The notes beneath the pieces were generated by a model. It saw only the letters and a list, made by a program, of their open reading frames with translations. It was not told the DNA's origin and did not search any database. Positions 17,797 through 32,208 of a stretch of DNA of 41,420 nucleotides are shown here, one piece after another. This DNA is from Patescibacteria group bacterium (lineage in GTDB: Bacteria > Patescibacteriota > Dojkabacteria > J137): contig BOLA01000002.1 in the NCBI GenBank assembly GCA_016861265.1, positions 1-41,420 of the forward strand, given 5' to 3'. The translations under genes and the position numbers were made by a program. Position 1 is the stretch's first letter, and every line of letters begins with the position of its first letter.

Positions 17797-18020
17797 ACTT
17801 TTGAAATGTTTACACGCCAGACTTCAGGACCACGCTCAACATATTCCCATCCAAACTGGTTTGCTTTTTCTGCCTGAAACTGATAATAAAGCGGAACCGG
17901 ATCATGATCATTAATTAACTGAAAAGCTTCTCCGTTTTTTAGTTCATCGAATGTTTTCATGATGGTTGGATGTTTTTCGCGAGGGACAACAGGACGAATA
18001 TCAAGTTTATTTAATTCCAT
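17793..18020 (-). CDS. Single-domain DUF2249 protein
   Basis: LDIRPVVPREKHPTI...LINDHDPVPLYYQF...GPEVWRV. Confidence 0.85.
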   Translation of the reverse strand: MELNKLDIRPVVPREKHPTIMKTFDELKNGEAFQLINDHDPVPLYYQFQAEKANQFGWEYVERGPEVWRVNISKV

Positions 18021-18053
18021 TTTAAACTCTTTCTAATTTAGGTTTTCTACTTA

Positions 18054-18095
18054 AACCTATTGGTTTTAATATTAGATTTCCTTGACTTAAGTCAG
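18054..18095 (-). promoter_or_regulatory. Crp/Fnr-type box (TTGAC-TTAA-GTCAG, 18082-18095) with a -10-like TAGGTT 22 nt downstream
   Basis: Palindrome 62 bp upstream of the DUF2249 start; same spacing as the 14642 site. Confidence 0.62.
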
Positions 18096-18160
18096 AGTTA
18101 TTATCTTTTAAACAATTAAATTTCGTTTGAATGTAAAGAAGTAAATAGAAGGCAGGATAC

Positions 18161-18855
18161 TTATTTTGCCAGGTCTTTTAATTTTTCAAGATCATTGATA
18201 AAGACAGTTTTACCAGATATGCGAATAATTTCTTCGTCTTGCAATTTTTTGAAGCTCCGAGAAAGAGTTTCTGTTATTGTCCCTAGATACGCAGCAATTG
18301 TTGATTTAGGAACTGTTAATTTTACAAATGGCTCTGGTAATGTTTCTGTTCCTGAAGAATTTATCTCCTTAAGAATGTATTTTGCAAGGCGATTGGGAAC
18401 TTCTTTGGATGAAATATCTTCCAGTTGATTGACTAGTGATTTCATTTTTTTTGAAAATCCCGCCAACATCTTTAATACATATCGGGCTTTTCACTGATAA
18501 GTTTATAAAATCCTTCTTTTGATATAAATATTAATAGAGATTCTTCAAGACTTTGTGCATTAGCTGGATAATTACCTCCATCAAATAAGGGAATATCAGC
18601 AAAAACACTTAACGGTTTCACAATGTGAACAACCGATTCCTTACCCCCTGAGCTAATCTTATAAACTTTTACTGATCCTTTTAATAAAATAAAAAATCCA
18701 TTATAAAAATCACCTTCATGAAAAAGGAAATCATTTTTCTTAAATATTTTAATTTTACTAAAAGAGGTAACTGTTCTTAACTGTTCAATACTTAGTCCAG
18801 AAAATAATGGAAGGTTTTTTAATGTGTCTTTGCCATTGACTATATCATTCATCAC
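18161..18855 (-). pseudogene. Crp/Fnr-family regulator split by a 1-nt frameshift near 18470-18480
   Basis: cNMP-binding domain (18472-18855: LFHEGDFYNGFFILLKGSVKVYK, FDGGNYPANA) followed out of frame by the HTH half (18161-18469: STIAAYLGTITETLSRSF). Confidence 0.85.
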
Positions 18856-18913
18856 ACACTCTGAAAGTCTTATTTCTGATTAAAAAATATAGTTTAATAT
18901 AAGGTTAAAATAA

Positions 18914-18945
18914 AATCCCTCACTGATATAAATCAATAAGGGATT
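18914..18945 (-). terminator. Intrinsic terminator after the oxidase subunit I gene; its core also matches an Fnr/Dnr box (TTGAT-TTAT-ATCAG)
   Basis: Minus strand aatcccttattgat-ttat-atcagtgagggatt forms a 14-bp stem (with G-U pairs) followed by TTATTTT. Confidence 0.6.
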
Positions 18946-18970
18946 CAAATAAGAGGGAAATACTATGATT

Positions 18971-20593
18971 TTATTTTTCCGCGGGCAGCAAATCTTTAGT
19001 ATTTAATTTTGAAGGCATAAAAATCCCAATCACACCTTTTAAACCTACACTCATAACGATATTATAAAAGAATGCAATGAACGCTAATAATAACAGTAAA
19101 CCGCAAAGGCCCGCTAATATCATATAAAAACTATACTCACCATCAAAATAAATTGTACGTCTTAACATTCCTTTTAATCCAGCCATACCCATAAATGCAC
19201 CCATTCCAATTCCGCCTAATAAATGTGCCCAGAAATGGAAGTTGGCTAACTTTTGACTATATAATTTTGCATTATTAGTTACTATAGGAAATAAAAAGTA
19301 AATAGCTGAATAAAGTGTCATTGTTAATCCAACTAATATTGCTACGTGTACGTGCGGGCCAACAATCCATTGAGTGTTATGTAAAATTCTATTCAATCCT
19401 AAATCTGCCTGCATTATTCCAGCCGGTACAGCAAGCGCAAATCCCAACAATCCTCCTAATAAAAACTTTAATGGATTTGTCATCTTTAATGGTCTTGCAC
19501 TCCACAGAGTAATTAATGTAATAAAGAATGCAAGTCCTTGCGTGATAAGCTCAAAAGCTGTTACCATTTCACCAGATAGTATCTTTAAAATTCCTGGCTG
19601 AGCCTGATCTGACATTAAATGATGTGACCAAACCGTCCAGCTAACAACCATCTCAACAAACAAAGCTGCACGAGCCCAGTTTTCCATAAAAAGTTTTTTT
19701 CCGGTAATTAATGTTGCAAGTAAATACCAGGTGCCAGCAACAAAAATTAAAACCAATCCATCAGCAATTAAATCTAAACCCCACCAGAACCAATTTTTAT
19801 AAAGCAATGCATCTATTGAAGAATGTTTTAAACTTGATCCAAGAAGTTCTGCAATCATATAAACTAAAATTAAAACACCTGTAAAAAGTATTATACCTGC
19901 ATTTAAAGCAGTATCAACAGTACCTCTTGCGATTGCAGCAACCGGTAATGAGACCATATGTTCTTTTTTATTTTTTCTAAAAAGATTTTTTAAGCCGCTT
20001 AAACCTAATGCTGAAGCTATTAATCCTTTTCCATCCTGTTTCTCCCAACCTTCCGGTGTGTAAGCAATTGTTCTAAAAATATTAAGGACAAAGAAAACAG
20101 TACCAACCATTATTAAAGCAATACCAAGAATAAAAAATGTACCACCCCAAACGCTAAATTGAGTAAAGTCTGCAGGTAATGGCCAGTACAATGTATAAAG
20201 TGGTGCATAGTGAGTTAAAAATCCTGCAAACCAAAAAGTAAATGTTCCAACTGCAATCAAGCCGCAAGTCCAGTTAGCAAGTTTAATACTCCATAAAGGT
20301 TTGCTCATTAGAAATGGTACAAGAAATAAAAATGCACCAAAAACTATTGAGTAAGTCGAACCAAAAATTCCGACAAGCGGATGTGCAGTAAGCATACCAA
20401 AATATTGGTCAGGTGGTATAGCTGCAATTGGTGTTACCTGGTAAACTCTCATAAGCATTCCTTCAACAAGAGCAAATAAGTAGTAAACCAATCCAACAAC
20501 AACAAACCTTAAAATCATTTTTTGCATTGGAGTAAGTGAATTGGGTTTGAATAAACCTTCTTCTCCATCCATAAAAGTTTGTATAAAATTCAT
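18971..20593 (-). CDS. Heme-copper oxidase superfamily subunit I, B-family-derived, probably gNOR-type nitric oxide reductase
   Basis: Heme ligands LTAHPLVG and HNTQWIVGPHVH; metal ligands WSHH; helix VI reads FWWGLDLIAD where ba3 oxidases have FWWTGHPIVY. Confidence 0.75.
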   Translation of the reverse strand: MNFIQTFMDGEEGLFKPNSLTPMQKMILRFVVVGLVYYLFALVEGMLMRVYQVTPIAAIPPDQYFGMLTAHPLVGIFGSTYSIVFGAFLFLVPFLMSKPLWSIKLANWTCGLIAVGTFTFWFAGFLTHYAPLYTLYWPLPADFTQFSVWGGTFFILGIALIMVGTVFFVLNIFRTIAYTPEGWEKQDGKGLIASALGLSGLKNLFRKNKKEHMVSLPVAAIARGTVDTALNAGIILFTGVLILVYMIAELLGSSLKHSSIDALLYKNWFWWGLDLIADGLVLIFVAGTWYLLATLITGKKLFMENWARAALFVEMVVSWTVWSHHLMSDQAQPGILKILSGEMVTAFELITQGLAFFITLITLWSARPLKMTNPLKFLLGGLLGFALAVPAGIMQADLGLNRILHNTQWIVGPHVHVAILVGLTMTLYSAIYFLFPIVTNNAKLYSQKLANFHFWAHLLGGIGMGAFMGMAGLKGMLRRTIYFDGEYSFYMILAGLCGLLLLLAFIAFFYNIVMSVGLKGVIGIFMPSKLNTKDLLPAEK

Positions 20594-20635
20594 TTGATAA
20601 TCTCTTCTTTTATTAAAAATTTATTTTTGTTTTTT

Positions 20636-21184
20636 TCAATCGATCACTTCAACGACATTTTTTTCAATCATACCAATACCTTTTGGGCCTGAGTACTCAG
20701 TTGATCTGATTGTATAAACGCCGGGTCTATCAAAATGCCAGAGTATATCGTTGTTATGTCCGGGTAAAACCTGCATCTGGAACATCATCGTATTATCCTC
20801 ACGGAATAATCCAAATCCATATGTTAAATCTTCTGAAGTAACATTAAACATTACTTTATCGTTAGTGTTTATAATCATTTTTTCGGAAGGTAAAATAAAT
20901 TTATGATTTGCCACGCTGATATTAAATGTTTTATCAGGGATAATTTCTGCACGGTTCAAATCCAGTGGCTTCCACGGGATTGTTTCGTGTGTAACTATGT
21001 GAAGCGAAACCCCAAGAAGAACGAGAAAGCCTACAAGGGAATAAAATAGCGCAGGTTTAATTTCTCTAGACCCTTCGCTTTTTGTAACATTATAAGCAAA
21101 CCAACCCATAAGCAGCATAATTGCCAGCACATAAAATGTGTACGCAAATGTTTGACCAAAAAGAACTGTATTTGAATCAACCAT
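20636..21184 (-). CDS. Heme-copper oxidase subunit II-like (2 TM + cupredoxin) lacking CuA ligands
   Basis: EDLTYGF (His absent) and STEYSGPKGIGM in place of C-x-E-x-C-G-x2-H-x2-M; directly upstream of subunit I. Confidence 0.8.
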   Translation of the reverse strand: MVDSNTVLFGQTFAYTFYVLAIMLLMGWFAYNVTKSEGSREIKPALFYSLVGFLVLLGVSLHIVTHETIPWKPLDLNRAEIIPDKTFNISVANHKFILPSEKMIINTNDKVMFNVTSEDLTYGFGLFREDNTMMFQMQVLPGHNNDILWHFDRPGVYTIRSTEYSGPKGIGMIEKNVVEVID

Positions 21185-21207
21185 ACCAGGCTCCTTCTAA
21201 AATAAAT

Positions 21208-21235
21208 TTAAATGCTACCCAAACGTAGTATTTAA
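21208..21235. promoter_or_regulatory. Candidate Rrf2 operator upstream of the oxidase operon
   Basis: ttaaatgctac-ccaaac-gtagtatttaa: 11-bp arms with one mismatch, in the 62-bp gap between Rrf2 and subunit II. Confidence 0.4.
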
Positions 21236-21246
21236 GTTTAAATAAA

Positions 21247-21657
21247 TCAATCCTCTTTAGATTTATTGATTAAATCTGACAAACGCGTTTTACTGAGAAT
21301 ATTTATAAGATCTTTCTGCGATCTGATCCATATATCGTGCATTGAACAAGGATTGTCTAAAGCACATTTATCAAAACCAAAAAAACAGCTTGGCTCTTTC
21401 CGAAATCCTTCAACTGCGTCAATGATTTCCGATATTTTAATTTTGCCCGCCTTTTTTGCAAGCAAAAATCCTCCGCTTCTTCCCTGAATACTTTTTATCA
21501 GTCCACTTTTGGAAAGGTCTGTAAGCAATCTCTGCAAATATTTTTTAGGTATTTTAAGTTTTTTATGTAATTCTAGTGATGAATATAATTTTTTATCATC
21601 ACCAGCCATAAGTGCTAAAACTCTTAGTGCATATTCTGTAGTTTTTGAAAAAGTCAT
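21247..21657 (-). CDS. Rrf2-family Fe-S transcriptional regulator (NsrR/IscR-like)
   Basis: TEYALR, SIQGRSGGFLLAK, C-terminal CFFGFDKCALDNPCSMH cluster ligands. Confidence 0.9.
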   Translation of the reverse strand: MTFSKTTEYALRVLALMAGDDKKLYSSLELHKKLKIPKKYLQRLLTDLSKSGLIKSIQGRSGGFLLAKKAGKIKISEIIDAVEGFRKEPSCFFGFDKCALDNPCSMHDIWIRSQKDLINILSKTRLSDLINKSKED

Positions 21658-21681
21658 ATCGATTAAATTATTAACTTATAC

Positions 21682-22047
21682 TTAAAACGTAAACACTTTG
21701 ACCGCTTCAACAGACCACTGAGCAAGTTCACTCATATTGCTTCTTGTGCAGCCTTCAATGAATTGAAGCGTAGCAACTCCACGTGCGTTGATACATCCGC
21801 CGCAAAGTTTTACCTGACCACCTTTATTGATTATGGCTTTTAACATCCTTTCGACGTTATAATATCCTTGTGGTGTGTTTTGGTTTACAAGCGCACCCGT
21901 AACCGCATCTGCCATTAAGAAAACATTAACCTCAACTTCAGATTGTTCTTTGTGGATTGTCATTGCAAGACGACAAGCGTTATAAAATTTTTCTGTACCG
22001 TAAGGTGCATCGTTTATTAAGAATAGTATTTGCACTGTGGACTCCAT
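21682..22047 (-). CDS. DsrE/YchN-family sulfur relay protein
   Basis: INDAPYGTE, VFLMADAV, TPQGYYNVERML, LCGGCINARG. Confidence 0.85.
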   Translation of the reverse strand: MESTVQILFLINDAPYGTEKFYNACRLAMTIHKEQSEVEVNVFLMADAVTGALVNQNTPQGYYNVERMLKAIINKGGQVKLCGGCINARGVATLQFIEGCTRSNMSELAQWSVEAVKVFTF

Positions 22048-22189
22048 TATTTTTATAGAGAACGAGATTTTTATTATAATAAATATAACAAAAGCTAATT
22101 CAACACTCTTCCATTCTAAAAGAAAATATTTATTTTACAAGAGAGTCTATATATCCGAATGATTAGCAAAAAATGAGAAGAAAAATTAA

Positions 22190-22679
22190 ATGAAAACTAT
22201 CTCGACTGTTACGAGACGCAGACTTGATTTACAAGGGTTTACAGATGTTAACGAAAATTTGCTAAACCAAACTGCAAGCTGGCTCAGGCTTGCATTTGCA
22301 TTGTGTACACTCTTAGCAGGATTGGGGACTATCCTGGCATCTTACACGATATTATATATTTTAGTACCGATAGCTGCACTCGGTGCAATTTTCAACACAC
22401 ATCCATTTGATTTAATTTACAATTATGGGATTAGATACATAACGGGTACACCTGCCTTACCCAAGCGTGGAGCACCGGGCAGATTTGCTTGCGGACTAGG
22501 ATCTGTTTGGCTGATTGTCACTGCTTTAATGTTTCAGATGGGTAATAATACTATAGGATATATTATTCTTGGTGCTTCACTTACTATTGTAGGATTGTTG
22601 GTCAGCACTATTTGATTATTGAATTCCTTCGTTAATTTATAGGAGTATATTCGGGTTCCCGCCTAAGAGAAAGGGTTAA
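22190..22679 (+). pseudogene. DUF4395-like membrane protein with a damaged C-terminus (+1 frameshift near 22611-22613 and TGA at 22620-22622)
   Basis: HPFDLIYNYGIR...GAPGRFACGLG; after the called stop the +1 frame continues DY*IPSLIYRSIFGFPPKRKG, where a Cys is expected at *. Confidence 0.65.
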
Positions 22680-22717
22680 ATCTTAATCCCCCAAATCGAT
22701 TCATTTAGCTTTTTCTT

Positions 22718-23585
22718 CTACAATTTTAGTTTCTTTTTTGATTTTGTTTTTACCATTAATGGCTGAGTGTATTTTTCATAGAGCTCAAAAAGGAATTCTA
22801 TTCTTTTTGTTTCGTTTGGGAAGGGCTGGGGACGGTAGCATAAATCTACCGCTTTGTCTAATTCCTGATGCGCTTTTACTAATGCCGGCGGCATTGTAAG
22901 AGGATCGTATAAATCTGCAAGACTGCTGTTTGGAAATTCTTTCCTTGTATCTAAAACTTTTTGTGCTTTTTCTTCTACAAGTTTTATTTGTTTGTTTGTT
23001 GGATTTTCCGGCCAAAGAAAGTTGTTGTAAACAATATCGTTTGAATATCTAAATCTGCTTTCTAATCTAACCAAACTTGTTTAACCCAAGCCATAAGCAT
23101 TTCAGAAGTCAATACGCCAAAATGGGACTTAGATGTTTTAGAAATTGAAAGACAACTATCTGCAACGATGTAATCCTTACTGAAGTAACCTAGAGGTATA
23201 TACTTTCTATTTTCAGAAGAATGTCTGGGTAACATAATATAATTTGAATTTGGTTGTCTAATTTCTCCAACTAAAGTTGAGTAAAGTGCTAATTTCTTTG
23301 TCGCCATTCTAACACTATCTGCCCTATGATTTTTAACAGCTTCAATACGTTCCATAACTTTAGTGAAACCTTTAAGCGTACCAGGATCAACATCAATTAA
23401 CCACAAACACCATCGATTAGTATTATTAATAAACTCTTTTACTGATAAAAATGGTTTAATAAATTTATTCAATTCCGGATTTATATTAAGGATTTCTTTC
23501 TTTTCATCATCATTTAATAAAAGAGTGCCACCATCATTAGGCATATTGCCAAAATTAATTTCCGGAACATCGCAAATAGTGTTAG
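22718..23585 (-). pseudogene. C-terminal fragment of an MmeI-like type IIL/IIG restriction-modification enzyme, 5'-truncated and frameshifted near 23070
   Basis: NFGNMPNDGG, EIRQP...PRHSSENRKYIPLGY, HFGVLTS, RLESRFRYSNDIVYNNF, SLADLYDPLTMPPALVKAHQELDKAVDLCY; no nuclease or methyltransferase motifs present. Confidence 0.85.
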
Positions 23586-23775
23586 ATCTGTCCGGTCGAA
23601 TAGTTCTTCTGGGATTTCAAATCCATATATAAGCTCAAGCTCGGAAAGAGTAAGGATCCAGTCAATTTCAGTAAGGTTATCGTTAATCAAACCAGAGATA
23701 ATGATCTCTGGTGAATATTTATTTCTTACTTCTGATCTAGAGTCGAGTAGCTAATGTAAAAATATATCTAAGCAT
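23575..23775 (-). pseudogene. 5' part of a small hypothetical gene, frameshifted and joined to the MmeI-like fragment
   Basis: ATG at 23775 overlaps the upstream stop; after a shift it reads SRSEVRNKYSPEIIISGLINDNLTEIDWILTLSELELIYGFEIPEELFDRTDLTL and runs into RM sequence at AGATCTAACACT. Confidence 0.4.
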
Positions 23776-23950
23776 AATCTGGCCCTGGTTTAAATTCTCT
23801 CATTGATGGAGTAGTAAATGTTCTTGCATCATCAAATGGGTTTTTTGGTTTTTTCTGTTGAGCAAGCAGCTTATTAAAAACTACATCCGCTTTTTCTTTA
23901 GATCTATTCTTTTGCTTTTCAAGCATCTGTTTATCGATATTATTTTTCAT
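23768..23950 (-). CDS. Small basic hypothetical protein
   Basis: 60 aa, preceded by a GGAGG Shine-Dalgarno. Confidence 0.55.
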   Translation of the reverse strand: MKNNIDKQMLEKQKNRSKEKADVVFNKLLAQQKKPKNPFDDARTFTTPSMREFKPGPDYA

Positions 23951-23989
23951 TTTAATTCCTCCAAAGGTTTAGTTTAATATTTTAATCAT

Positions 23990-24376
23990 TTATAAATCGC
24001 TTCTGAAATATTTCTCTCTATACCGTCTTAAATGAACTTTGTTAAAAGATAGGTAAATACATATATCTTCTTGAAATTCACGATAATTATATCCAAGTAT
24101 TTTTACAGCAGTTATGAATGAGCCGTTAGAGATGTATTCACCAAAATATTTTTCAACATAAAACTTCAGCTGAAGACTGTTTTTTAAGTTCTTGAAAGAT
24201 TTATTTGGTTTATAAAACTCAACCAACCAAAAGATGCATTTCTGGATTTCATCTGTAGCATTTAGTAAAGTCTCCCTGCCTCTTATATATTCTGGACTGG
24301 AAATATCTCTGTTAATTCCGTCATAAATCACTTCCGGATAATTATCCAGATATTTTATAATTGTTTCTTTTTCCAT
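23990..24376 (-). CDS. Hypothetical protein of phage/primase-associated type
   Basis: GAGGA Shine-Dalgarno; SLQLKFYVEKYFGEYISNGSFITAVKILGY resembles a motif I associate with primase-linked phage proteins (from memory). Confidence 0.55.
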   Translation of the reverse strand: MEKETIIKYLDNYPEVIYDGINRDISSPEYIRGRETLLNATDEIQKCIFWLVEFYKPNKSFKNLKNSLQLKFYVEKYFGEYISNGSFITAVKILGYNYREFQEDICIYLSFNKVHLRRYREKYFRSDL

Positions 24377-24379
24377 CGT

Positions 24380-24679
24380 TTAATCCTCCTCAGGAAATAT
24401 CAGGTGCTTATAATAAGCTGCTGGAACTGTCCCTCTTTGAACCCCAACATAGATAGCTGACTTGAGATTGACTGGTCTTTGCCAGTTGCAGACTTGACTT
24501 AAGTATCTCAGAGTCGAAGCACTAACATATTCCTTGAGAATTTTGCTTAGCTCTTCAGCTCCTTTGTACATACCGTATCTTATCCATACCTGTTTTACTT
24601 CTTCAAGCCCGATTGTGTTTATTAGTTTTTGAGTGCTGGTGTTTTTTCGTTTTCCTATTTGGTTGATATCCCTAGTCAT
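24380..24679 (-). CDS. Small hypothetical protein, possibly DNA-binding
   Basis: Strong GGAGG Shine-Dalgarno; basic N-terminus; helical AEELSKILKEYVSASTLRYLS segment. Confidence 0.55.
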   Translation of the reverse strand: MTRDINQIGKRKNTSTQKLINTIGLEEVKQVWIRYGMYKGAEELSKILKEYVSASTLRYLSQVCNWQRPVNLKSAIYVGVQRGTVPAAYYKHLIFPEED

Positions 24680-24766
24680 AATTCCCTCCTTAATTTGTTG
24701 TACCTACCTCGGTTTAATCATTCTTTTAATGTCTCTTTGTAGTAGACCTGCCTCCTTCGAAGTTCA

Positions 24767-25050
24767 GGTAACTAAAGGTAACCAGAGGTAACCAAATGTT
24801 TTGTTTTTAGTTTAAATTCGCAATAGTTACCCCTGTTACCTGGTTACCCCAATTTTTAAGTTGGTTGGAGAAATAATTAATTATTTTTTTCCATCCCCAG
24901 TTAAAAAAGTTTTTCCTAATTAATTATTTATTTTCTGATATTAGAAAATATAGGTAACCAGGTAACCTACCCCCCTTTCTTTAGTTTTTAGTTTAAATTC
25001 CAACAATCCAGAGGTAACTTTCGGGTAACCTAAAGGTAACCGGGGTAACC
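24767..25050. repeat. Iteron array / candidate replication origin: 12 GGTAAC(C) copies in four clusters around an AT-rich core
   Basis: Forward copies at 24767, 24777, 24787, 24953, 24961, 25013, 25024, 25035, 25044; reverse GTTACC at 24826, 24835, 24843; 17-bp direct repeat GTTTTTAGTTTAAATTC at 24803 and 24984; palindrome AAATAATTAATTATTT at 24871-24886. Confidence 0.8.
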
Positions 25051-25094
25051 AAATTCCAGCACAACCAGGATAGATTGTGCCGGGTAATATGTAA

Positions 25095-26957
25095 TTACTT
25101 AGATTCATATACTTTCATTGATATTCCATCAAATTTTTTTGTCGTTTCCTCAACTCCTTTTAACTTTAATCTTTTCAGTGTCGACTTATAATTATGATAT
25201 TGAAAGTGATACTTGCATATCTTACTCATATACCTTGCTGGAATTACTCCGTGCAGATCAATCTTATCTTCTACCATTGCAGCAATATCTGTTTTCAATC
25301 CCATATCCTTTTCTGGTTCAGTGATTGGAAATATTTCATCAAGCAGAAAATAACTCGCATCCTTCGCTTTTAATCTTTCAGCAAATTCTTCGTATTCATC
25401 TTTTGATAATGCTTTCAATATGTTCTTTGCTTCTGTTTCAATTGGATGATTTGCAAGCTCCCTATCGTAATCTAATTTGAAAATAATATTTGCAAATTCC
25501 GAGAGTTCAGCTTTTATATCAGGTTCAAGATCCTTGAGGCTTTTATAGATAGTTAACTCACTTACCTTCTTTGCATTATCATTTCTAATTACATTAAATC
25601 TCCTGTCTTCATCATCCAGAAATATTGGATGTTCACTGTTCGAGAATAAAATGAAATTCATAAAGTTGCTTGTTTGAAATGTATCAACACCCTTTATTTC
25701 AATGCTCTGGTATGGAGCAGTAATTAAATCCTTTAACGATTCCTTGCGATGAAGATTTTCTTTAGCATTACCTGCACTAAAAACTTCATTGTATCCTCGC
25801 AGAAAACAATTCATATCAATCTTATTAAAGTTTTTTGCGATTCTGCTGCCATTCATTAACTGAGATTGTTTTTCACCAAATAGCGGCATTAATATTCTGA
25901 TAAATAATAAATCTTTGCCAATGCCCTGCACATTAGAAGTAATTAACCACGCTGTGTATGACTTTACTCTTGCCTGTAGAATGAATGCAATCCAGTTCAG
26001 AAATCTTTCAAGATATTCTTTCTGACCAAAGATGTTAATCATAATTTCATATATAACTTTACATCTCTTCTCTAATTCAGAAACAACTTGATTCAAGGCA
26101 AGGGGTAGTAAGGTAGTATAATCCTTTTTCATATACTCACTCTCTTCAAACAAATTATAATATTTATCATTCAAACCTCCGTGCAAGCCCGGATTAAATA
26201 TTATTTCTCTTCTCGGTAAATAAGAACGAATATTCGGATCAATGTTTTTCTGCATACAGTAATTATCAAAATCAGCTGCATTCTTGAATATGTAAAGAGG
26301 ACCATCACCATTATAACTTTCATACCCGATCATTGACGGACCACCAACAGACTCATTCCAGAATAATTTACTCTTTGCTGCATCTATCTCTTTACTATCC
26401 TGCCAATAGGTTTTGCTTTCTGATGAACAGAAAATATAATACTGCCCAACATCATTGATATCAATGAATGCATTATGTGTATGCGGATGTGTTCTCTTTG
26501 AATGATCGCAGTAAGGACAGAATATTTTTGTTTTACCTGAAATATTTCTAACCTTCTCCCTTGTAACACCATCTTCAAGAGTAACTTCATCATCAAGTGA
26601 AATTGTTATCTCTTCTTTTTTTGGTCTTCCTGGTTTTTTCTTTTTTATTTTTAATTTTTCATCGTCCCAAAAATTTAGAGATAAAAAGTTCATTGCTTTT
26701 TTTCTTCTTAATCTGTTTAGAGATGTATTCACAGTTATCTGGTAAATCCAGGTTGATAGTTTGGAATCTGCTCGAAAAGAATTGATGGAATTGAAAACTT
26801 TAATGAAAACATCCTGAGTAACTTCCTCGGCATCTTCATTATTGCCGGTCATACGAAAGCAAACGCTATAAACCATACGGGAATATTGGTCATATACATA
26901 TTTGTATATAAACTCATCACCGCTTTTAAGGTTTTCAATTATCTTTGCTTCTTCCAT
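25095..26957 (-). CDS. Chimeric ORF: ECF sigma-70 region 2 (about aa 1-100) fused in frame to the Zn-finger + D5/DUF5906-type SF3 helicase part of a phage/plasmid primase
   Basis: N-terminus EDAEEVTQDVFIKVF...FRADSKLSTWIYQITVNTSLNRLRR is sigma region 2; then CPYCDH...FC; ERFLNWIAFILQ, Walker A QGIGKD, YNEV (Walker B), NFMNFILFSN, DRRFNV. Confidence 0.8.
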   Translation of the reverse strand: MEEAKIIENLKSGDEFIYKYVYDQYSRMVYSVCFRMTGNNEDAEEVTQDVFIKVFNSINSFRADSKLSTWIYQITVNTSLNRLRRKKAMNFLSLNFWDDEKLKIKKKKPGRPKKEEITISLDDEVTLEDGVTREKVRNISGKTKIFCPYCDHSKRTHPHTHNAFIDINDVGQYYIFCSSESKTYWQDSKEIDAAKSKLFWNESVGGPSMIGYESYNGDGPLYIFKNAADFDNYCMQKNIDPNIRSYLPRREIIFNPGLHGGLNDKYYNLFEESEYMKKDYTTLLPLALNQVVSELEKRCKVIYEIMINIFGQKEYLERFLNWIAFILQARVKSYTAWLITSNVQGIGKDLLFIRILMPLFGEKQSQLMNGSRIAKNFNKIDMNCFLRGYNEVFSAGNAKENLHRKESLKDLITAPYQSIEIKGVDTFQTSNFMNFILFSNSEHPIFLDDEDRRFNVIRNDNAKKVSELTIYKSLKDLEPDIKAELSEFANIIFKLDYDRELANHPIETEAKNILKALSKDEYEEFAERLKAKDASYFLLDEIFPITEPEKDMGLKTDIAAMVEDKIDLHGVIPARYMSKICKYHFQYHNYKSTLKRLKLKGVEETTKKFDGISMKVYESK

Positions 26958-27073
26958 TTAGTTTTGCCGCAAATCCAGATTGTTGTATTAGCTTAAAAAA
27001 TAAGGTTCTATTATTAAACAAGTTTCTGAACGTTATTGTTTAACAAATAAAAAGAATTAGATGTCTTGCCGAA

Positions 27074-29350
27074 TCAAAACTTCGCCGTAAACCCAATAAT
27101 AGGCATAATTCCAAAATCATATCGCGGCTCTGTGGTTATTGTACCGTCCTTAGTGGTTTTGAATGAATATGAAACAACATTATCTCTGTTGTACACATTC
27201 CACAAATCGAGGTAAACGGAAAACGACCAGTTATCAAATACAAATTGTTTATCAATGCGAAGATCTAATTTGTGGTAATCGGGGTAATGTGCGGAATTAT
27301 TCTCGCCGTCAATTACATAAAAGATATTATCTATTTCAGTTACACCGGTTACCGGCGTGTACGGGTGGCCGGAAGCATATTGAAACTTTGCTCCAATCTG
27401 CCAGCCGGCTCCCATCTCAAGACCAAAAATCAAATTCAAAATGTGCGGTCTATCATATTCAAAGTCATACAGCGATGCTAATTCATAATCCCTTCTTTTA
27501 GAAATTGAATAAGAATAAGAAGCGCTTCCGACAAAACCATCAGTAAATTTCTTTTGAAGCGAGAATTCAATTCCTTGAGCATAACCGCTTCCGGTATTGA
27601 TTAATAGGTTCGAACTATCAGGATCTACTATCAAGCTCGAAAGCTCTTTATGATAAATTTCAATACCCGCTTTTGTATCCAATCCCAAACGGTATTCTAC
27701 TCCGGCAATGTAATGATCGGCGTAACTGCTGTTCAACAAAAGATTTCGTTCATCAGGTGCTATTTCATAACTTGCCGGCGATTGATAATACCTTCCCAGG
27801 GCAAAGTTCAGCCGCGTTCTTTCGGATAAATTGTACGATAGAGAAATTCGAGGACTAAAATTATTTTCATTTGTTAACGAAAAATAATCGTAACGCAATC
27901 CGGCAGAGATCACTAACGGATCAACAATACGGAAAGATGACTGCAGAAAAAACATCGACTTAAATTCAGCATCGGGTTGATAAGAAATTATACTTGCGGG
28001 AATAATTGTTCCCTCCCGGGTTGTATCGGCAGGGCTCCAGGATTCATTATGAGAATTGATCACTTTAAATTGTCCACCAAGTTTCAAATTTAATTTCGGT
28101 GAAAACTGATAGTTAAATTCAGACTTCAAACTGAATTCATCTTCGCGAATATCTTCGCCCAGTAAATCACGGTTTAATTCTGTACCTTGAATTGTATTCC
28201 AGCCGTTGCTTGTGTAAGAAGCCGTAACTAACGAGAATGCTTTTTCTGAAATGAGCGAGCGCCAATTAATTCCGATTGCAGCGCCGTAATCATCGCGTGT
28301 CAAATAGTCGAAACGATTCCAACTGTATGTTTCACCTTTCTCAATTCCGGTTCGTTCAATTTGATCTACATAATAAAATCCCACGAGACTTATTCTGTTG
28401 TCTTTATTCAAATCAAAAGAAGTTTTTCCGACTGCATCATAATAGTTCGGTGCTACAGGTTTGTCAAGAAGTGAAGTTATCAAATCGAAATAACCTCGTC
28501 TAAGAGAAAATACCATATTAGTATTTTCGGCAACAGGTCCATCCATCGTTATGCCGAAACCGGCTATATTTAAATTTGCATCGGTATTCATAGTTTCTTT
28601 GTTGCCCTCTTTTAGAGTCATATCAAAAACAGATGACATTTTAACTCCGTACTTAGCCGGGAAACCTCCGGTTAAGAAATCAACTTTTTGAAGCAGTGCT
28701 GGATTAACTATGCTTATTACACCCATTGATTCACCAGTTCTGGCAAAATGTATCGGGTTATATACTTCAATATTATCAAGCAGGGTTAGATTTTCTTCCG
28801 GGCTTCCGCCTCGTACAATTAATTGTGCGCTTTTTGTGCCTGCTGTTGCAACGCCTGGCATTGACTGCATAACTCTAAAAATGTCTTCCGCAGAACCAGG
28901 CGATCTTCTTATTTCTTCGGGTGATATTGTTCTGAAACTGACTGGATTTTCATCCGGATTTGCAAAATAATCCGCTGTTACTTTAACCTCGTCCATTTCC
29001 ATAGCAGCAGAATTAAGTTCAAAATTTACCGATTGATTTCTATTAGGATTTATGTTTAACTCTGTTATCACTGAAGATAAATAACCAATCATTGAAACTT
29101 TTAAAGAATATCTCCCAGGTACCACATCTTTTATAACGTAATAACCATTCTCATCACACGCCGAACCCTGATTTGTTCCATCAATTAATATGTTTGCACC
29201 TGGAAGTGGTTGTTTAGTTACAGCATCTCTTACTTCACCGGAAATTATTCCGGTTTTACTTTGGCTATTTATTTCATTTGTAAGGAATAGAAATACTGAA
29301 ATCGTTATTGCAATTAAGATTTTGGCGATGGCAAATGATTTTTTGTACAA
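27074..29350 (-). CDS. TonB-dependent receptor with an N-terminal carboxypeptidase-regulatory-like domain
   Basis: GEVRDAVTKQPLPGANI; plug RVMQSMPGV...LIVRGGSPEENLTLLDNIEVYNPIHF; KLDLRIDK...NVYNRDN; C-terminal F; TTG start. Confidence 0.9.
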   Translation of the reverse strand: MYKKSFAIAKILIAITISVFLFLTNEINSQSKTGIISGEVRDAVTKQPLPGANILIDGTNQGSACDENGYYVIKDVVPGRYSLKVSMIGYLSSVITELNINPNRNQSVNFELNSAAMEMDEVKVTADYFANPDENPVSFRTISPEEIRRSPGSAEDIFRVMQSMPGVATAGTKSAQLIVRGGSPEENLTLLDNIEVYNPIHFARTGESMGVISIVNPALLQKVDFLTGGFPAKYGVKMSSVFDMTLKEGNKETMNTDANLNIAGFGITMDGPVAENTNMVFSLRRGYFDLITSLLDKPVAPNYYDAVGKTSFDLNKDNRISLVGFYYVDQIERTGIEKGETYSWNRFDYLTRDDYGAAIGINWRSLISEKAFSLVTASYTSNGWNTIQGTELNRDLLGEDIREDEFSLKSEFNYQFSPKLNLKLGGQFKVINSHNESWSPADTTREGTIIPASIISYQPDAEFKSMFFLQSSFRIVDPLVISAGLRYDYFSLTNENNFSPRISLSYNLSERTRLNFALGRYYQSPASYEIAPDERNLLLNSSYADHYIAGVEYRLGLDTKAGIEIYHKELSSLIVDPDSSNLLINTGSGYAQGIEFSLQKKFTDGFVGSASYSYSISKRRDYELASLYDFEYDRPHILNLIFGLEMGAGWQIGAKFQYASGHPYTPVTGVTEIDNIFYVIDGENNSAHYPDYHKLDLRIDKQFVFDNWSFSVYLDLWNVYNRDNVVSYSFKTTKDGTITTEPRYDFGIMPIIGFTAKF

Positions 29351-29462
29351 TAAGTAAACTCCGTTTATGGTTTATAAATCATTTGACACACTTAAAGGTT
29401 AAAACTTGCGGTTTGTTTGATTTAAAGGAAATATAAAAAAGTTAAAATTTTACTTTATCATC

Positions 29463-30857
29463 TCAAAAAGCATGATCAACAAACATCTGCATGTAAAATC
29501 CTTCCTTGCTGTAAGCACCATCCATTCTTAAAATAAGGTTGTTCATAAAAATTCTTATACCGCCGCCGGCGCTCCATTTCATATCTGTGTGTAAAGTGGA
29601 GATGTTCCATTCGGGTGCAACTCTACCGGCTTCTGCAAATACAGCTAATTGAAGCCAGTGTACGTTTAATTTTTCAGTAACCGACCATAAATCAAATGGA
29701 TTCCAGTCAATTATATGCCTGTATTCGGCTCCATAATAAATTGCTGCTCTATCATTAAATCGTCCTTCGTAAAAAGCACGAAGCCTGTATCTCCCACCAA
29801 GATACGCGCCAGTATAAGGTGGCGGACGATGATATTGTTTGATTTCATTACCCTCCGGATCTAGTCCAACAACATCATAGCTGTCCCATGTCAGAGTGTT
29901 TACTGTCCAGAAATCAAATGCTAATACTTTTGGCAGCGAATTTTTATCGCAAAAAATTTCGTGAAGCGGTAAATACCATCTTAGATCTGTTTCTACAACA
30001 CTCCAGGGTGCCATAGTATCAAACCATCCGAAGTCTCTTCTAAAAGCAATTTTCTGAACGCTCCCGCGTGTTGGATTTACATAATAATCTGTATTCTCTC
30101 TTGTTAACGCAAATTCAATTCCGTTAGTAGCAAAGGCAACTCGTTTTCTATAAAATGGTTTTATATCTATAAAAGTTCTTCCACTTATAAATGGGTTCCA
30201 GTGTGTACCGCCCATCTCACCAGATTTTAAAATTCCGTTTTCTAATTTTGGTGAAAAGTAAACTTCATCTTTGCCATGCCCGATCGGAAGAAGAAATCTA
30301 AATTTAAGCTCATACCATTGGTCATTCCCGCTCACTTCCATATAATCATTTTTATCTGACTCGTTACTACCAGCCCGAAGTTTAGGATCATTTTCAATTA
30401 AAGTAGTTGGCGGATCTTTATAAACATTTAGTACACCGAAATATCCTCCTAATATATCGGGCGCGATGTAAAGCCTTGGATAAAATGGCAAATAGAATTC
30501 TTTGATTTGAATGAATCCGTATTTTGTTCCATTAGTACTAATTAATCCACCCATGTAAAGGGACATATTTTTTTGTGATAAACCCTGAACTCCCACAAAC
30601 CCGCCTGCAGCCCAACCAAATATTTCGCTATATAATGCAAACGGTAAAGCTGAGATTGTAATTTCATCCTTTTTTTGATTAAGTGAATCTTCAATAACTT
30701 CTTGCTTTAAATCATCATTTAGAATAACTGCTTCATTTGATTTGACAATATCTGATTGACTTTTAACTTCGACAGAAAAAAGTGAAATTAACAATAAGAG
30801 CAAGAAAACATTTTTTATTAGTCTCATATTAGCAATCAGTTTTATCATCATTTTCAT
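29463..30857 (-). CDS. Omp85 (BamA/TamA-family) barrel protein without POTRA domains
   Basis: Signal peptide; GGRYRLRAFYEGRFNDRAAIYYGAEYR, AGGGIRIF, LRMDGA, C-terminal ...VDHAF. Confidence 0.72.
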   Translation of the reverse strand: MKMMIKLIANMRLIKNVFLLLLLISLFSVEVKSQSDIVKSNEAVILNDDLKQEVIEDSLNQKKDEITISALPFALYSEIFGWAAGGFVGVQGLSQKNMSLYMGGLISTNGTKYGFIQIKEFYLPFYPRLYIAPDILGGYFGVLNVYKDPPTTLIENDPKLRAGSNESDKNDYMEVSGNDQWYELKFRFLLPIGHGKDEVYFSPKLENGILKSGEMGGTHWNPFISGRTFIDIKPFYRKRVAFATNGIEFALTRENTDYYVNPTRGSVQKIAFRRDFGWFDTMAPWSVVETDLRWYLPLHEIFCDKNSLPKVLAFDFWTVNTLTWDSYDVVGLDPEGNEIKQYHRPPPYTGAYLGGRYRLRAFYEGRFNDRAAIYYGAEYRHIIDWNPFDLWSVTEKLNVHWLQLAVFAEAGRVAPEWNISTLHTDMKWSAGGGIRIFMNNLILRMDGAYSKEGFYMQMFVDHAF

Positions 30858-30864
30858 TAATTAT

Positions 30865-32208
30865 TTAGTCTAAATATTCCAGTTCTTCGATTAAATGATT
30901 TGTTCCATTGGTATCCAAGTGCGTAACTGGTGATTCATTCATCAGTTTCCGCAAAGTATTTTTGAGTTTCATCATCTGAATAAAAAGATCATGTTCAGGA
31001 ACAATATTGGGCGAGTGCATAGGACTTTTGAAAAATACTGACATCCATTCTTGAATTCCGCTCATGTGGCTTCTGAGAGCAAGGTCGGCAAATAAAATTA
31101 AATCGAGTACAATCGGAGCTGCTAAGATAGAATCACGACATAGGAAATTTATTTTTAATTCCATTGGATAACCGAGCCAACCGAAAATATCTATGTTATC
31201 CCATCCCTCTTTATTATCCCCGCGAGGAGGATAATAATTTATTCTTACTTTATGATAGTATTCTGAATAAAGATCTTTATATAATTCTGGTTGTAAAATA
31301 GAATCGAGTACAGAGAGTTTGCTTTCTTCTTTGGTTTTGAATGATTCTGGATCGTCTAGAACCTCTCCGTCTCTATTGCCAAGAATGTTATTTGAAAACC
31401 ATCCATTTAAGCCTAACAGTCTCATTTTTAACATAGGTGCAATAACTGTTTTTATAAGTGTTTGCCCAGTCTTAAAATCTTTACCAGCTATAGGGACATT
31501 CATTTCTTTAGAAAACTCAACCATCGCCGGAATATCCACACTTAAGTTTGGCGAACCATTTATATAAGCCGCTTCTTCAGCAATCGATGCATATGCATAA
31601 AGCATGCTTGGAGAAATATCCGGATCATTTTGAATCATACCTTCAATAAATGATTCGGTAGATTGATGAACTGCTTTCTGTTCAATAAATATTTCTGTAC
31701 TTCCCGCCCAGATTACAACGACACGTTCGAGTGAATTCATTTCTTTAAATAACTGAATATCTTCTCTTAATTGCATCATAAGTTCAAATTTATTTTTTCC
31801 ACTCTTGACATATTCCCCATTCAATCGTTTTACATAATTTTGATCGAATACGCCGCGCATCGGTACAATATTCTGTAATTCATCTGAAACAATTTTCAGA
31901 TCTTTTTCATTAAGAACTTTTGCGTACTGTGCAGCTTCTAAACAATTTTCGTTTCGAATATCCCATCCCCCGAAGACTAAATCGTCTATAGACGTTAGTG
32001 GGACAAAGTCTTTTATTAATGGAAAATTATTATCACTTCTCTTTCCAGACCGGATGGTTCCCATTTGTGATAGTGACCCGATAGGTTTTGCCAATCCTTT
32101 TCGAATGGCAAAAACTCCGGCTAAAAAAGTTGTAGATACTGCGCCATTTAAACCGACGATTAGTACTCCTAATTTTCCATTCGGTTTTTTAATTTCATAT
32201 AATTCCAT
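30865..32208 (-). CDS. ino1: myo-inositol-1-phosphate synthase (Bacteroidota-type)
   Basis: GVLIVGLNGAVSTT, VFGGWDI, YINGSPN, GKDFKTGQTL, NILGNRDG, GDNKEGWD, CRDSILAAPIVLDL. Confidence 0.95.
   Translation of the reverse strand: MELYEIKKPNGKLGVLIVGLNGAVSTTFLAGVFAIRKGLAKPIGSLSQMGTIRSGKRSDNNFPLIKDFVPLTSIDDLVFGGWDIRNENCLEAAQYAKVLNEKDLKIVSDELQNIVPMRGVFDQNYVKRLNGEYVKSGKNKFELMMQLREDIQLFKEMNSLERVVVIWAGSTEIFIEQKAVHQSTESFIEGMIQNDPDISPSMLYAYASIAEEAAYINGSPNLSVDIPAMVEFSKEMNVPIAGKDFKTGQTLIKTVIAPMLKMRLLGLNGWFSNNILGNRDGEVLDDPESFKTKEESKLSVLDSILQPELYKDLYSEYYHKVRINYYPPRGDNKEGWDNIDIFGWLGYPMELKINFLCRDSILAAPIVLDLILFADLALRSHMSGIQEWMSVFFKSPMHSPNIVPEHDLFIQMMKLKNTLRKLMNESPVTHLDTNGTNHLIEELEYLD

What the first reader, a model, noticed from the sequence alone, without database searches (positions are those of the whole stretch)
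23575..26957. Model: an origin-bearing chromosomal segment circularised or amplified by illegitimate recombination
Seen: a circle with no integrase, partition, conjugation or capsid genes, about 38 kb of chromosome-type genes, an intact-looking satellite origin, and a mid-gene junction. Inference: one recombination between the middle of a resident element's primase gene and an ECF sigma gene about 41 kb away gives exactly this molecule. It keeps the origin, so a helper copy of the primase could replicate it in trans and amplify or mobilise the lipid and NOR loci. The size is also in the range of a tailed-phage headful. An amplification (MDA) chimera is the competing explanation.
Basis: inference. 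Interest (0 to 1): 0.68.

Follow-up and report, generated by a model that had tools for sequence, protein, structure and literature searches.

The report
False circle from a repeat-flanked chromosome segment
The 41-kb "circle" is a single-copy stretch of an Ignavibacteria chromosome that the assembler closed on itself across a 366-bp repeat and that was then binned into the wrong genome, but the sigma-primase gene fusion inside it is real and marks a 38-kb block of genes imported from another lineage.

Summary
The sequence features are real. The window is a whole contig with an exact 127-bp end overlap. It has no integrase, partition, conjugation or capsid genes. An iteron array lies behind a primase-helicase gene. 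One in-frame junction (J1, 26655-26666) joins ECF sigma region 2 to the last 524 residues of a 718-aa primase-helicase.

The circle itself is not a molecule that the data support.
- The exact fusion protein sits on 49 public contigs up to 281 kb long, all linear where I read them.
- In those contigs the path runs fusion, origin, a 366-bp repeat R (24385-24750), a different tail, then ordinary chromosome.
- A second copy of R lies 41 kb upstream, behind another intact primase-helicase element.
- The window closes only by switching copies inside R. Other assemblies break the same unit at R (one contig of 41,056 nt).
- Depth equals the flanking chromosome (about 600x against 640-680x in one run).
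- The contig is Ignavibacteria DNA mis-binned into a 1.1-Mb CPR genome.
- J1 occurs unchanged in 20 runs from at least 13 studies, so it is not an MDA chimera.

The 38-kb block is foreign. It is 92-97% identical to a sister lineage, against 66-77% for the host species' own locus. Whether it entered as such a circle is open (about 0.3).

The parts
1..127 (.). Terminal direct repeat, identical to 41294-41420. This is the assembler's k-length overlap that makes the contig look circular.
   Evidence: The join itself is ordinary continuity: a 23,947-nt contig of run X7 crosses it with exact length, and G001 contig C5 is colinear across it.
1..23577 (-). First part of the 38-kb block U: PagL, Omp85, DUF3943, ABC-2/OEP/HlyD efflux, TetR, gNOR and accessory genes, Rrf2, DsrE, DUF4395, truncated MmeI.
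   Evidence: Pfam. 99.98% identical to ENA contig NODE_28 (205 kb) over 13990-24750. 87-92% identical to G001 over most of this span, with an 82-86% patch at 12575-15384.
26667..41420 (-). Second part of block U: sigma region 2 stub, TonB-dependent receptor, Omp85-like gene, inositol-lipid cluster, Mla, NTP transferase.
   Evidence: Pfam. 99.98% identical to NODE_72 (168 kb) over 24385-36957. 93% identical to G001 over 26642-39359.
22718..23577 (-). MmeI-family remnant: target-recognition and C-terminal domains only, frameshifted, with the N-terminal part missing.
   Evidence: PF20466 and PF20467. The same remnant is present in G001 (L046) and NODE_28.
23578..23578 (.). J2: the end of element homology, where a truncated element ORF joins the truncated MmeI gene. 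It is older than J1 and is shared with the sister lineage.
   Evidence: homology to the full element L001 stops here, inside L001 ORF 13548-13955. (window 19648-23978 matches G001 C126 at 92%, straight across J2).
23578..24384 (-). 'A-tail' of the element: truncated ORF, 60-aa ORF (23768..23950) and 128-aa ORF (23990..24376). In linear contigs this tail follows a different, intact 678-aa primase-helicase.
24385..24750 (-). Repeat R (366 bp, includes the 99-aa ORF 24380..24679). It is present twice in the chromosome, 41 kb apart in direct orientation, and the window's contig switches copies here.
   Evidence: (99.2% between the copies in L049 and L053), twofold depth in X7 (1273x), and contigs of other assemblies ending inside it.
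24403..24403 (.). Copy-specific SNP. The window has the B-copy base, followed 11 nt later by A-tail sequence. All eight other A-tail contigs that cover the site have the A-copy base.
   Evidence: No indexed run holds the hybrid words in full.
24763..25054 (.). Iteron-like array: about 12 copies of GGTAAC(C) in both orientations around an AT-rich palindromic centre. It is the presumed origin of the 'B' element copy.
   Evidence: It is conserved in position behind the primase gene in L001 and L085.
25095..26654 (-). The 3' 73% of a 718-aa-type primase-helicase gene: zinc-ribbon-like CxxC...C motif, DUF5906 SF3-type NTPase and C-terminal domain. The first ~195 codons are missing.
   Evidence: The missing part matches phage 'DNA primase' phrog_9765.
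26655..26666 (-). J1: the 12-nt microhomology (GACGATGAAAAA) where the sigma gene and the primase gene are joined in frame.
   Evidence: The pattern occurs once in the window.
26667..26957 (-). The 5' 97 codons of an ECF sigma gene (region 2 only). Region 4 is missing.
   Evidence: The intact 188-aa orthologue in G001 has region 2 and region 4.

Best explanation
The window is not a replicon. It is a single-copy stretch of the chromosome of an Ignavibacteria species, the species of the closed anammox-reactor genome IGN3 (CP053447).

In strains that carry it, the order is: Y1 flank (DnaE-like, DoxX, rhodanese); element head A (HTH_17, 1582-aa radical-SAM/SPL protein, intact 678-aa primase-helicase); R; A-tail; truncated MmeI; the 38-kb block U; sigma'::primase' (J1); iteron origin; R; B-tail; Y2 flank (DUF2231, metal-resistance genes).

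The two 366-bp R copies are direct repeats, so the assembly graph contains a cycle. The assembler emitted that cycle as a 'circular' contig with a 127-bp overlap, and the binner then put it into a CPR genome.

J1 itself is real, fixed and chromosomal. It is one illegitimate recombination at a 12-nt microhomology. It destroyed both genes: the sigma factor lost its DNA-binding region 4 and the replication protein lost its primase domain.

Block U is foreign to this species. It was imported from a lineage close to the Ignavibacterium MAG G001, where the same genes lie beside the same kind of element.

Shown: the two R contexts, the linear contigs, the depths, J1, the foreign origin of U and the mis-binning. 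Inferred: that the assembler, not a cell, closed the circle.
For: Linear context:
- The exact 620-aa fusion protein is on 49 contigs, the longest 281,393 nt.
- In ENA NODE_72 (167,689 nt) it is followed by 103-, 129-, 60- and 146-aa ORFs, then DUF2231, TPR, YHS and ABC genes.
- The window is 99.98% identical to that contig from 36957 down to 24385 and then differs.
- The exact 128-aa A-tail protein is on NODE_28 (205,291 nt), behind an intact 678-aa DUF5906 protein and Y1. That contig is identical to the window over 13990-24750 and differs above 24750.

The repeat:
- R is 366 bp and 99.2% identical between the two copies.
- Other assemblies break at R. NODE_730 is 41,056 nt, the whole unit with 55 nt of R at each end. 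NODE_824, the end of NODE_72 (by arithmetic), 20 contigs carrying the 678-aa gene, and Logan contigs all stop in R.

Depth:
- Run X7: U 563-620x, R 1273x, Y2 640-680x. Y2 includes a 22-84x minor strain that lacks U.
- Run X1: U 3-6x, Y2 3.3-4.8x.
- Run X6: U 5.5x, Y2 28-36x, U-less element about 20x.

J1:
- It occurs in 20 runs from at least 13 studies. The four runs laid across it (X1, X5, X6, X7) each have a contig crossing it with no difference.

Foreign origin of U:
- U is 92-97% identical to G001.
- It is only 66-77% identical to the colinear native locus of the closed genome G002. G002 shares Y1 and Y2 at 99.2-99.5%.
- The rpoB genes of G002 and G001 are 85% identical.

Mis-binning:
- C2 has no similarity to C1 or C3.
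- It carries the only TonB receptor of the assembly, and none of 8 relatives has one.
- The bin's stated contamination of 3.35% matches C2's share of 3.5%.
Against: - Two short Logan contigs (L055, 5.5 kb; L059, 2 kb) also run B-head, R, A-tail, as the window does. A k=31 contig should break at a two-copy repeat unless the other branches were lost.
- The window carries the B-copy base at 24403 directly before A-tail sequence. No other contig shows this hybrid. At k=127 it must have been present in reads of the source sample.
- I could not read the source library, and no read or read pair spanning R was available. A minority of real loop-out circles is therefore not excluded.
- I did not read any single contig end to end across both R copies. 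That NODE_28 and NODE_72 span the whole unit follows from coordinates and lengths.
Confidence: 0.85

Rival explanations
1. Real loop-out circle or tandem duplication. RecA-dependent recombination between the two direct R copies excises U plus one R as a 41.3-kb circle, or duplicates it, in part of the population. The window would be that molecule.
For: - Direct 366-bp repeats 41 kb apart are a sufficient substrate.
- The window, L055 and L059 show the B-head-R-A-tail path.
- The hybrid at 24403/24392 must exist in reads of the source sample.
Against: - U is not above its flanks in X7, X1 or X6.
- The reciprocal product (A-head-R-B-tail) was seen in none of 23 + 13 contigs.
- A crossover would have to fall in a 10-nt window at the edge of R. 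Strain variation or gene conversion in the A copy explains the hybrid more simply.
- The only replication gene on such a circle lacks its primase domain.
Confidence: 0.09
2. One illegitimate crossover between the primase gene and the sigma gene made a self-standing, origin-bearing circle, which a helper primase now replicates or amplifies.
For: - The G001 gene order is exactly the required parent.
- J1 has the microhomology expected of such a crossover.
- An iteron array is present.
Against: - J1 is embedded in linear contigs up to 281 kb that run on into chromosome.
- Depth equals the flank.
- No second primase copy at 95% identity or more is present in X7 to act as a helper for these iterons.
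Confidence: 0.03
3. J1 is an artefact: an MDA chimera or an assembler mis-join.
For: The junction is mid-gene in both partners, and the window comes from a metagenome bin.
Against: - J1 has full word share in 20 runs from at least 13 studies (sludge, soil, biofilm, sediment; 2017-2022).
- The four runs laid across it each have an independently built contig crossing it with no difference.
- The exact protein was called on 49 contigs from NCBI, ENA and Logan.
Confidence: 0.01

Closest known systems
Repeat-induced false circular contigs in de Bruijn graph assemblies
   Same: A segment bounded by two direct copies of a repeat longer than k forms a cycle in the graph. The contig is emitted with a k-length end overlap, other assemblers break the same unit at the repeat, and depth is single-copy.
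   Different: The repeat here is not an IS element or an rRNA operon. It is a 366-bp module shared by two otherwise dissimilar copies of a primase-helicase element, so no self-similarity is visible within the window.
F-prime/R-prime formation and lambda-dgal-type aberrant excision, followed by Campbell integration
   Same: An episome-derived origin would be joined by illegitimate recombination to a long stretch of flanking chromosome. The insert is now flanked by a direct duplication of element sequence, as after a single crossover of a circle.
   Different: No such circle was observed. The element has no conjugation or packaging genes in view. The pre-insertion recipient element (A-head-R-B-tail) was not found. 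The duplicated arms are identical only over R.
Homology-facilitated illegitimate recombination (one homologous anchor plus one microhomology join; de Vries and Wackernagel 2002, from my own knowledge)
   Same: Foreign DNA has one end in shared mobile-element sequence and the other end (J1) at a 12-nt microhomology.
   Different: The left border of the differing sequence coincides with the element's own end next to the rhodanese gene, not with an internal anchor. Natural transformation is not known for these bacteria.
P4-like and PICI-type satellites and other integrative elements with a primase-helicase (D5/SF3, DUF5906) and an adjacent iteron origin
   Same: A DUF5906 helicase gene is followed directly by an iteron array and small ORFs. 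Full copies in relatives carry a tyrosine integrase and an HTH_17 excisionase-like gene (L001).
   Different: The copy in the window lacks an integrase, an excisionase and the primase domain. No helper phage, packaging signal or capsid-redirecting genes are known for this family.

Membership tests
Plasmid or other extrachromosomal replicon | Circular topology that does not depend on a repeat also present in the chromosome | tested here: not met
   Closure runs through R (24385-24750), which has a second chromosomal copy. Linear contigs leave R in other directions.
Plasmid or other extrachromosomal replicon | Copy number independent of the chromosome, or presence without the chromosome | tested here: not met
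   U tracks Y2 at about 1:1 in X7 and X1, and tracks the U-bearing strain fraction in X6.
Plasmid or other extrachromosomal replicon | Intact replication initiator, plus partition or maintenance genes | tested here: not met
   The primase-helicase lacks its first ~195 residues. No partition genes are found.
Repeat-collapsed assembly cycle | Repeat longer than k at the closure, in two distinct genomic contexts | tested here: met
   R is 366 bp, longer than 127. A-head/A-tail and B-head/B-tail contexts are seen at 99.98% identity to the window.
Repeat-collapsed assembly cycle | Independent assemblies break the unit at the repeat, and depth is single-copy with the repeat at twofold depth | tested here: met
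   NODE_730 is 41,056 nt from R to R, and many contigs end in R. X7 has R at 1273x against 596x for the unit.
ECF sigma factor | Both region 2 (core binding, -10) and region 4 (-35 binding) | tested here: not met
   Only Sigma70_r2 is present. The intact G001 orthologue has both regions.
P4/PICI-like integrative satellite | Integrase and excision control, primase-helicase with origin, helper-dependent packaging | tested here: inconclusive
   An origin-like iteron array and a helicase part are present. Integrase and HTH_17 are found only in full relatives and are absent from the window. Packaging cannot be tested here.
Campbell-type (single-crossover) insertion of a circle | The insert is foreign and is flanked by a direct duplication of the segment shared with the target | tested here: inconclusive
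   Foreign origin is met. The duplication is identical only over R, and the rest of the arms are 79% identical or unalignable. That is what a crossover inside R between two different element variants would give, but also what later gene conversion would give.
Campbell-type (single-crossover) insertion of a circle | Existence of the uninterrupted target (A-head-R-B-tail) in related strains | tested here: not met
   Not seen among 23 contigs with the 678-aa gene or 13 contigs with the 129-aa gene. U-less strains carry other element variants.

The most novel reading that the evidence does not exclude
The circle did exist once, as the vehicle of a cross-lineage gene transfer.

1. In a donor arranged like G001, a primase-helicase element lying beside the gNOR/efflux/lipid/TonB locus recombined illegitimately with the sigma gene 41 kb away (J1). 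This gave exactly the 41.3-kb circle that the assembler redrew.
2. After transfer, that circle entered a related resident element of the IGN3 species by one homologous crossover in R.

This would explain in two steps why U is flanked by two non-identical partial element copies that share only R, why the A-tail is donor-like (92% to G001), and why the B-tail is resident-like (99.5% to IGN3). The U-bearing strain has also lost most of its native copy of the locus at the 95% identity threshold, so the event would amount to a replacement of about 30 kb of core envelope genes from another lineage, delivered F-prime-style by a satellite-like element.
Probability: 0.3. Interest if true: 0.65.

Novelty: new member of a known kind. 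Interest (0 to 1): 0.35.

Why it matters
Practical. A 'complete circular' contig carrying 38 kb of housekeeping-type genes could easily be reported as a plasmid, chromid or amplified episome of a CPR bacterium. Here it is a repeat-collapsed piece of an Ignavibacteria chromosome in the wrong bin. It accounts for essentially all of that bin's stated contamination. It would falsely give an ultra-small bacterium an outer membrane, a TonB receptor, a nitric-oxide reductase and an inositol-lipid pathway.

Biological. The region records a large import of core-type genes (efflux, lipid A and outer-membrane genes, inositol lipid, gNOR) between Ignavibacteria lineages whose rpoB genes differ by 15%. The block is lodged inside a primase-helicase element and has since spread through sludge, biofilm, soil and sediment communities. 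If the circle route were shown, it would be a natural example of prime-plasmid-like capture by a small integrative element in an uncultured phylum.

Tried and rejected
- Reciprocal junction or second copies in the same assembly: blastn of C2 against C1 and C3 gave nothing. This is uninformative, because C2 is from another organism.
- Locating P0001, the second allele of the fusion: it is not on record as a called gene. It is a read-level ORF of one run.
- JGI metagenome scan with a 40-nt pattern spanning J1: no match. The pattern was verified to occur once in the window.
I used the identical Y2 stretch of G002 instead.
- The genome search on L049: the record is not held.
- Searching runs for the hybrid words around 24403: only 3 sampled words, and no run held more than one. 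This is weak evidence.
- 'Two illegitimate junctions made at once with filler DNA': rejected, because J2 is shared with G001 and is therefore older.
- 'HFIR with a duplication of resident sequence': rejected, because A-head and B-head are unrelated immediately above R.
- Using the nearest full-length primase contigs (L085, L086) to decide which tail belongs to B-head: neither tail matched, because the 128/129-aa module is hypervariable.
- G001 sequence downstream of the sigma gene is absent from X7, X1 and X6 at 85% identity or more. The donor itself is therefore not in these samples.

Full report
**What the window is.** The window is one whole contig (C2, 41,420 nt) of a three-contig, 1.18-Mb assembly. 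Its first and last 127 bases are identical, which is the usual signature of a cycle emitted by a k=127 de Bruijn assembler. Almost all genes lie on the minus strand, and GC is 0.29-0.39 throughout. Pfam scans of all ORFs of 80 aa or more give the following:
- PagL, two Omp85-type proteins and DUF3943;
- an ABC-2/OEP/HlyD efflux set with TetR regulators;
- a gNOR-type heme-copper oxidase with accessory genes, a split Crp/Fnr regulator, Rrf2, DsrE and DUF4395;
- a TonB-dependent receptor, an inositol-phosphate-synthase lipid cluster, MlaDEF and a nucleotidyl transferase.

No integrase, partition, conjugation or capsid domain is present.

**The flagged region.** The 620-aa ORF 25095..26957(-) has Sigma70_r2 at residues 22-87 and DUF5906 at 341-453. 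In a search of 5.8 billion proteins, its relatives are 715-719 aa and cover only query residues ~97-620. The alignment shows that the first ~195 residues of the full-length protein are replaced by 97 residues of an ECF sigma factor. The lost part matches the N-terminal region of a phage 'DNA primase' family (phrog_9765), so the fusion keeps the helicase part and loses the primase part.

At DNA level, homology to a complete element (L001, JGI) covers only window 24563-26666 and 23578-23895. The element fragment is therefore 3.09 kb long and ends mid-gene on both sides.
- J1, sigma to primase. In a three-way alignment with an intact sigma gene (G001, 188 aa with regions 2 and 4) and an intact primase gene, the window follows sigma up to and through GACGATGAAAAA and follows the primase from that same dodecamer on. 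J1 is thus a 12-nt microhomology at 26655-26666, in frame.
- J2, element ORF to a truncated, frameshifted MmeI gene, at ~23578.

Behind the helicase gene lies a real iteron-like array, about 12 GGTAAC(C) copies around an AT-rich palindrome at 24763-25054. The stretch 23575-23990 is not an origin. It is a truncated element ORF and a 60-aa ORF.

**The contig does not belong to the genome it was binned with.**
- C2 shares no sequence with C1 or C3.
- Earlier notes of this scan describe C1 as a CPR (Dojkabacteria) chromosome and C2 as Ignavibacteriota.
- The only TonB-dependent receptor of the assembly is on C2. None of 8 relatives of the bin (0.9-1.6 Mb genomes) has one. The bin's stated contamination, 3.35%, equals C2's share of the bases.
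- C2 is 99.98% identical to contigs that continue into Ignavibacteria chromosome (see below).

Any depth comparison with 'the chromosome' of this assembly would therefore be meaningless.

**The parental order exists in a sister lineage.** The closest genome found through the TonB receptor is an uncultured Ignavibacterium MAG (G001, CAZQCC01).
- Its 71-kb contig is colinear with the window from about 15512 down through the contig-end join and on to 26642, at 93% over the part I aligned (26642-39359), and then continues with the intact sigma gene.
- Two further G001 contigs cover 15458-19702 and 19648-23978.
- The latter crosses J2 and carries a related element with a different, 865-aa replication gene next to the same MmeI remnant.

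So J2 is old and shared. The contig-end join is ordinary continuity.

**J1 is real and widespread.** The 501-nt stretch around J1 is held with all sampled words by 20 public runs from at least 13 studies (bioreactor and activated sludge, soil, biofilm, sediment; 2017-2022). Contigs of X1, X5 and X6 (3-6x) cross J1 without a single difference. In X7 (about 596x) one 23,947-nt contig runs from 24721 through J1, through the contig-end join with exact length, to 7374. An MDA or assembly chimera is excluded.

**But J1 is chromosomal, and the circle closes elsewhere.**
- The exact fusion protein was called on 49 contigs, the longest 281,393 nt.
- In ENA NODE_72 (167,689 nt) the order is lipid cluster, Omp85, TonB receptor, fusion, 103-aa, 129-aa, 60-aa and 146-aa ORFs, then DUF2231, TPR, YHS, ABC/FtsX and heavy-metal genes ('Y2').
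- The window equals this contig (2 mismatches in 12,573 nt) from 36957 down to 24385 and then diverges.
- Conversely, the exact 128-aa protein of the window lies on NODE_28 (205,291 nt). There it sits behind DnaE-like, DoxX, rhodanese ('Y1'), HTH_17, a 1582-aa radical-SAM/DUF3631/SPL protein and an intact 678-aa DUF5906 protein.
- NODE_28 equals the window from 13990 up to 24750 and diverges above it.
- The two contexts overlap only in a 366-bp stretch, R (24385-24750). R is 99.2% identical between the copies and sharply bounded on both sides by unrelated or 79%-identical sequence.

The chromosome therefore reads: Y1, A-head, R, A-tail, J2, MmeI', U, J1, B-head (primase' plus iterons), R, B-tail, Y2. 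The window is the cycle obtained by going from B-head through R into A-tail.

**Independent assemblies behave as expected for a repeat.** By the coordinates reported:
- ENA NODE_730 is 41,056 nt and runs from window 24696 round to 24458. That is the whole unit with 55 nt of R at each end.
- NODE_824 and the far end of NODE_72 also stop there, and Logan contigs stop at 24721.
- Twenty of 23 contigs with the 678-aa gene stop in R, and three go on to A-tail.

**Depth.**

| Run | U | R | Y2 (laid on G002) | G002-type, U-less element |
|---|---|---|---|---|
| X7 | 563-620x | 1273x | 640-680x, no differences | 22-84x |
| X1 | 3-6x | not compared | 3.3-4.8x | about 0 |
| X6 | about 5.5x | not compared | 28-36x | about 20x |

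In X7 a B-tail-specific contig is at 642x. U is thus single-copy relative to its own flank in the strain that carries it, and strains without U coexist with it. rpoB-like contigs in X7 are at 750-800x and another chromosomal stretch is at 857x, so U is certainly not amplified.

**Residual evidence for a real circle.**
- Two short Logan contigs (L055, L059) also take the B-head-R-A-tail path. At k=31 this should not happen if all four branches at R are present. Low coverage with tip clipping is the likely cause, but I could not check.
- The window has the B-copy base at 24403 followed by A-tail sequence from 24392. All eight other A-tail contigs that cover the site have the A-copy base, and no indexed run holds the hybrid words fully (only three sampled words).
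- At k=127 that hybrid must have been in reads. A private variant or gene-conversion tract in the A copy explains it more simply than a crossover confined to 10 nt at the edge of R.

I put a real loop-out circle or duplication in part of the source population at about 0.09.

**Where U came from.**
- The closed genome G002 (CP053447, 'IGN3', a 3.74-Mb Ignavibacteriae MAG from a freshwater anammox reactor; PMC7358590) shares Y2 at 99.5% and Y1 at about 99% with the U-bearing contigs.
- At that site G002 carries one intact element (719-aa primase, 1580-aa SPL protein) and no U.
- G002 has its own colinear efflux-to-lipid locus 1 Mb away, only 66-77% identical to U, and gNOR accessory genes elsewhere at 72%.
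- G002 and G001 differ by 15% in rpoB, whereas U is 92-97% identical to G001.

U is therefore a xenologous import from a G001-like lineage into one strain group of the IGN3 species. The fusion protein is indexed in 71 blocks, against 252 for the Y2 marker. In X1 and X7 the U-bearing strain lacks most of the native locus at 95% identity or more; X1 has a clean 3,173-nt skip.

**How it got there is not settled.**
J1 would be made in the donor, followed by a single crossover in R with a resident element. This explains in two events why A-head differs from B-head and A-tail from B-tail, why identity is confined to R, why A-tail is donor-like (92% to G001 across J2) and why B-tail is resident-like. 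Its predicted uninterrupted target, A-head-R-B-tail, was not found.
- Route 2: a donor element carrying U integrated at the rhodanese site, in tandem with a resident element. A deletion from mid-sigma to mid-primase followed, or a homology-facilitated illegitimate join. R would have been homogenised later. Its predicted resident, a full-length primase 99% or more identical to B-head, was not found either. The nearest is 93% at protein level and 88% at DNA level.
- A duplication of resident sequence is excluded, because the arms are unrelated outside R.

**Verdict.** The sequence features are real and well described, and the inference about how J1 arose is sound. The central claim, that the window is a circularised or amplified origin-bearing molecule, is not supported. 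It is a repeat-collapsed, mis-binned, single-copy chromosome segment. What remains of interest is a fixed sigma-r2/helicase fusion and a 38-kb cross-lineage import lodged in a primase-helicase element.

Noticed in passing
whole window (C2) against C1 and C3 of the assembly: C2 is bin contamination. It is Ignavibacteria DNA in a 1.1-Mb CPR genome, it holds the assembly's only TonB receptor, and its 3.5% share of the bases matches the bin's stated 3.35% contamination. Any metabolic reading of that CPR genome that uses C2 genes (outer membrane, gNOR, inositol lipid) would be wrong.
   Followed up: yes
genome contig C1, both ends: The last and first bases of C1 continue one UmuC/DinB-like reading frame, with an 11-nt overlap that has a single mismatch. 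The 1.11-Mb chromosome is probably closed apart from a strain variant.
   Followed up: no
18161-18855 (-): The Crp/Fnr regulator is split into a cNMP-binding ORF (127 aa) and an HTH_Crp_2 ORF (102 aa). The same split is called in NODE_28. Run X9 has an extra A behind 18478 in its only contig, which may change the frame and join the two parts. This looks like a strain-specific frameshift.
   Followed up: partly
window ~15400; G001 contig C5 97-10471: G001 carries about 10 kb of extra sequence inside the gNOR accessory cluster, relative to the window.
   Followed up: no
23578-23669; G001 L047 12105-12196: The last 92 nt of the element fragment recur (89-91%) about 10.5 kb downstream of the sigma gene in G001, inside a 165-aa ORF homologous to the element's 146-aa ORF. 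That ORF has a weak phosphopantetheine-attachment (ACP-like) match. This may be a second element remnant or an attachment-site gene.
   Followed up: partly
G002 (CP053447) 2,596,000-2,612,000, compared with runs X1 and X7: The U-bearing strain lacks most of the species' native efflux/DUF3943 locus at 95% identity or more. X1 shows a clean 3,173-nt skip. The imported block may have replaced the native one functionally.
   Followed up: partly
P0001 (620 aa, from one SRA run): This is a second allele of the same fusion. The first ~185 residues are identical to the window, and the rest is 8% different overall and resembles another primase allele (P0004 type). That suggests later recombination of the fused gene with other element copies.
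   Followed up: partly
L086/L087 (ENA), L085, L062-L065: The unit DUF5659, 718-aa primase-helicase and four or five small ORFs recurs in unrelated contexts, sometimes without an integrase or the SPL gene. The second small ORF (126-148 aa) is hypervariable. This is a modular, undescribed element family of Ignavibacteria.
   Followed up: partly
L053 2318-7066; L064 16120-20861: The element heads encode a giant (about 1580 aa) protein that combines radical-SAM, DUF3631 and spore-photoproduct-lyase-like domains. Its function is unknown.
   Followed up: no
7345-7379: A 35-nt stretch inside the ABC-2 permease gene is at 1590x in X7, against 596x around it. It is a short sequence shared with other loci or organisms.
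   Followed up: no
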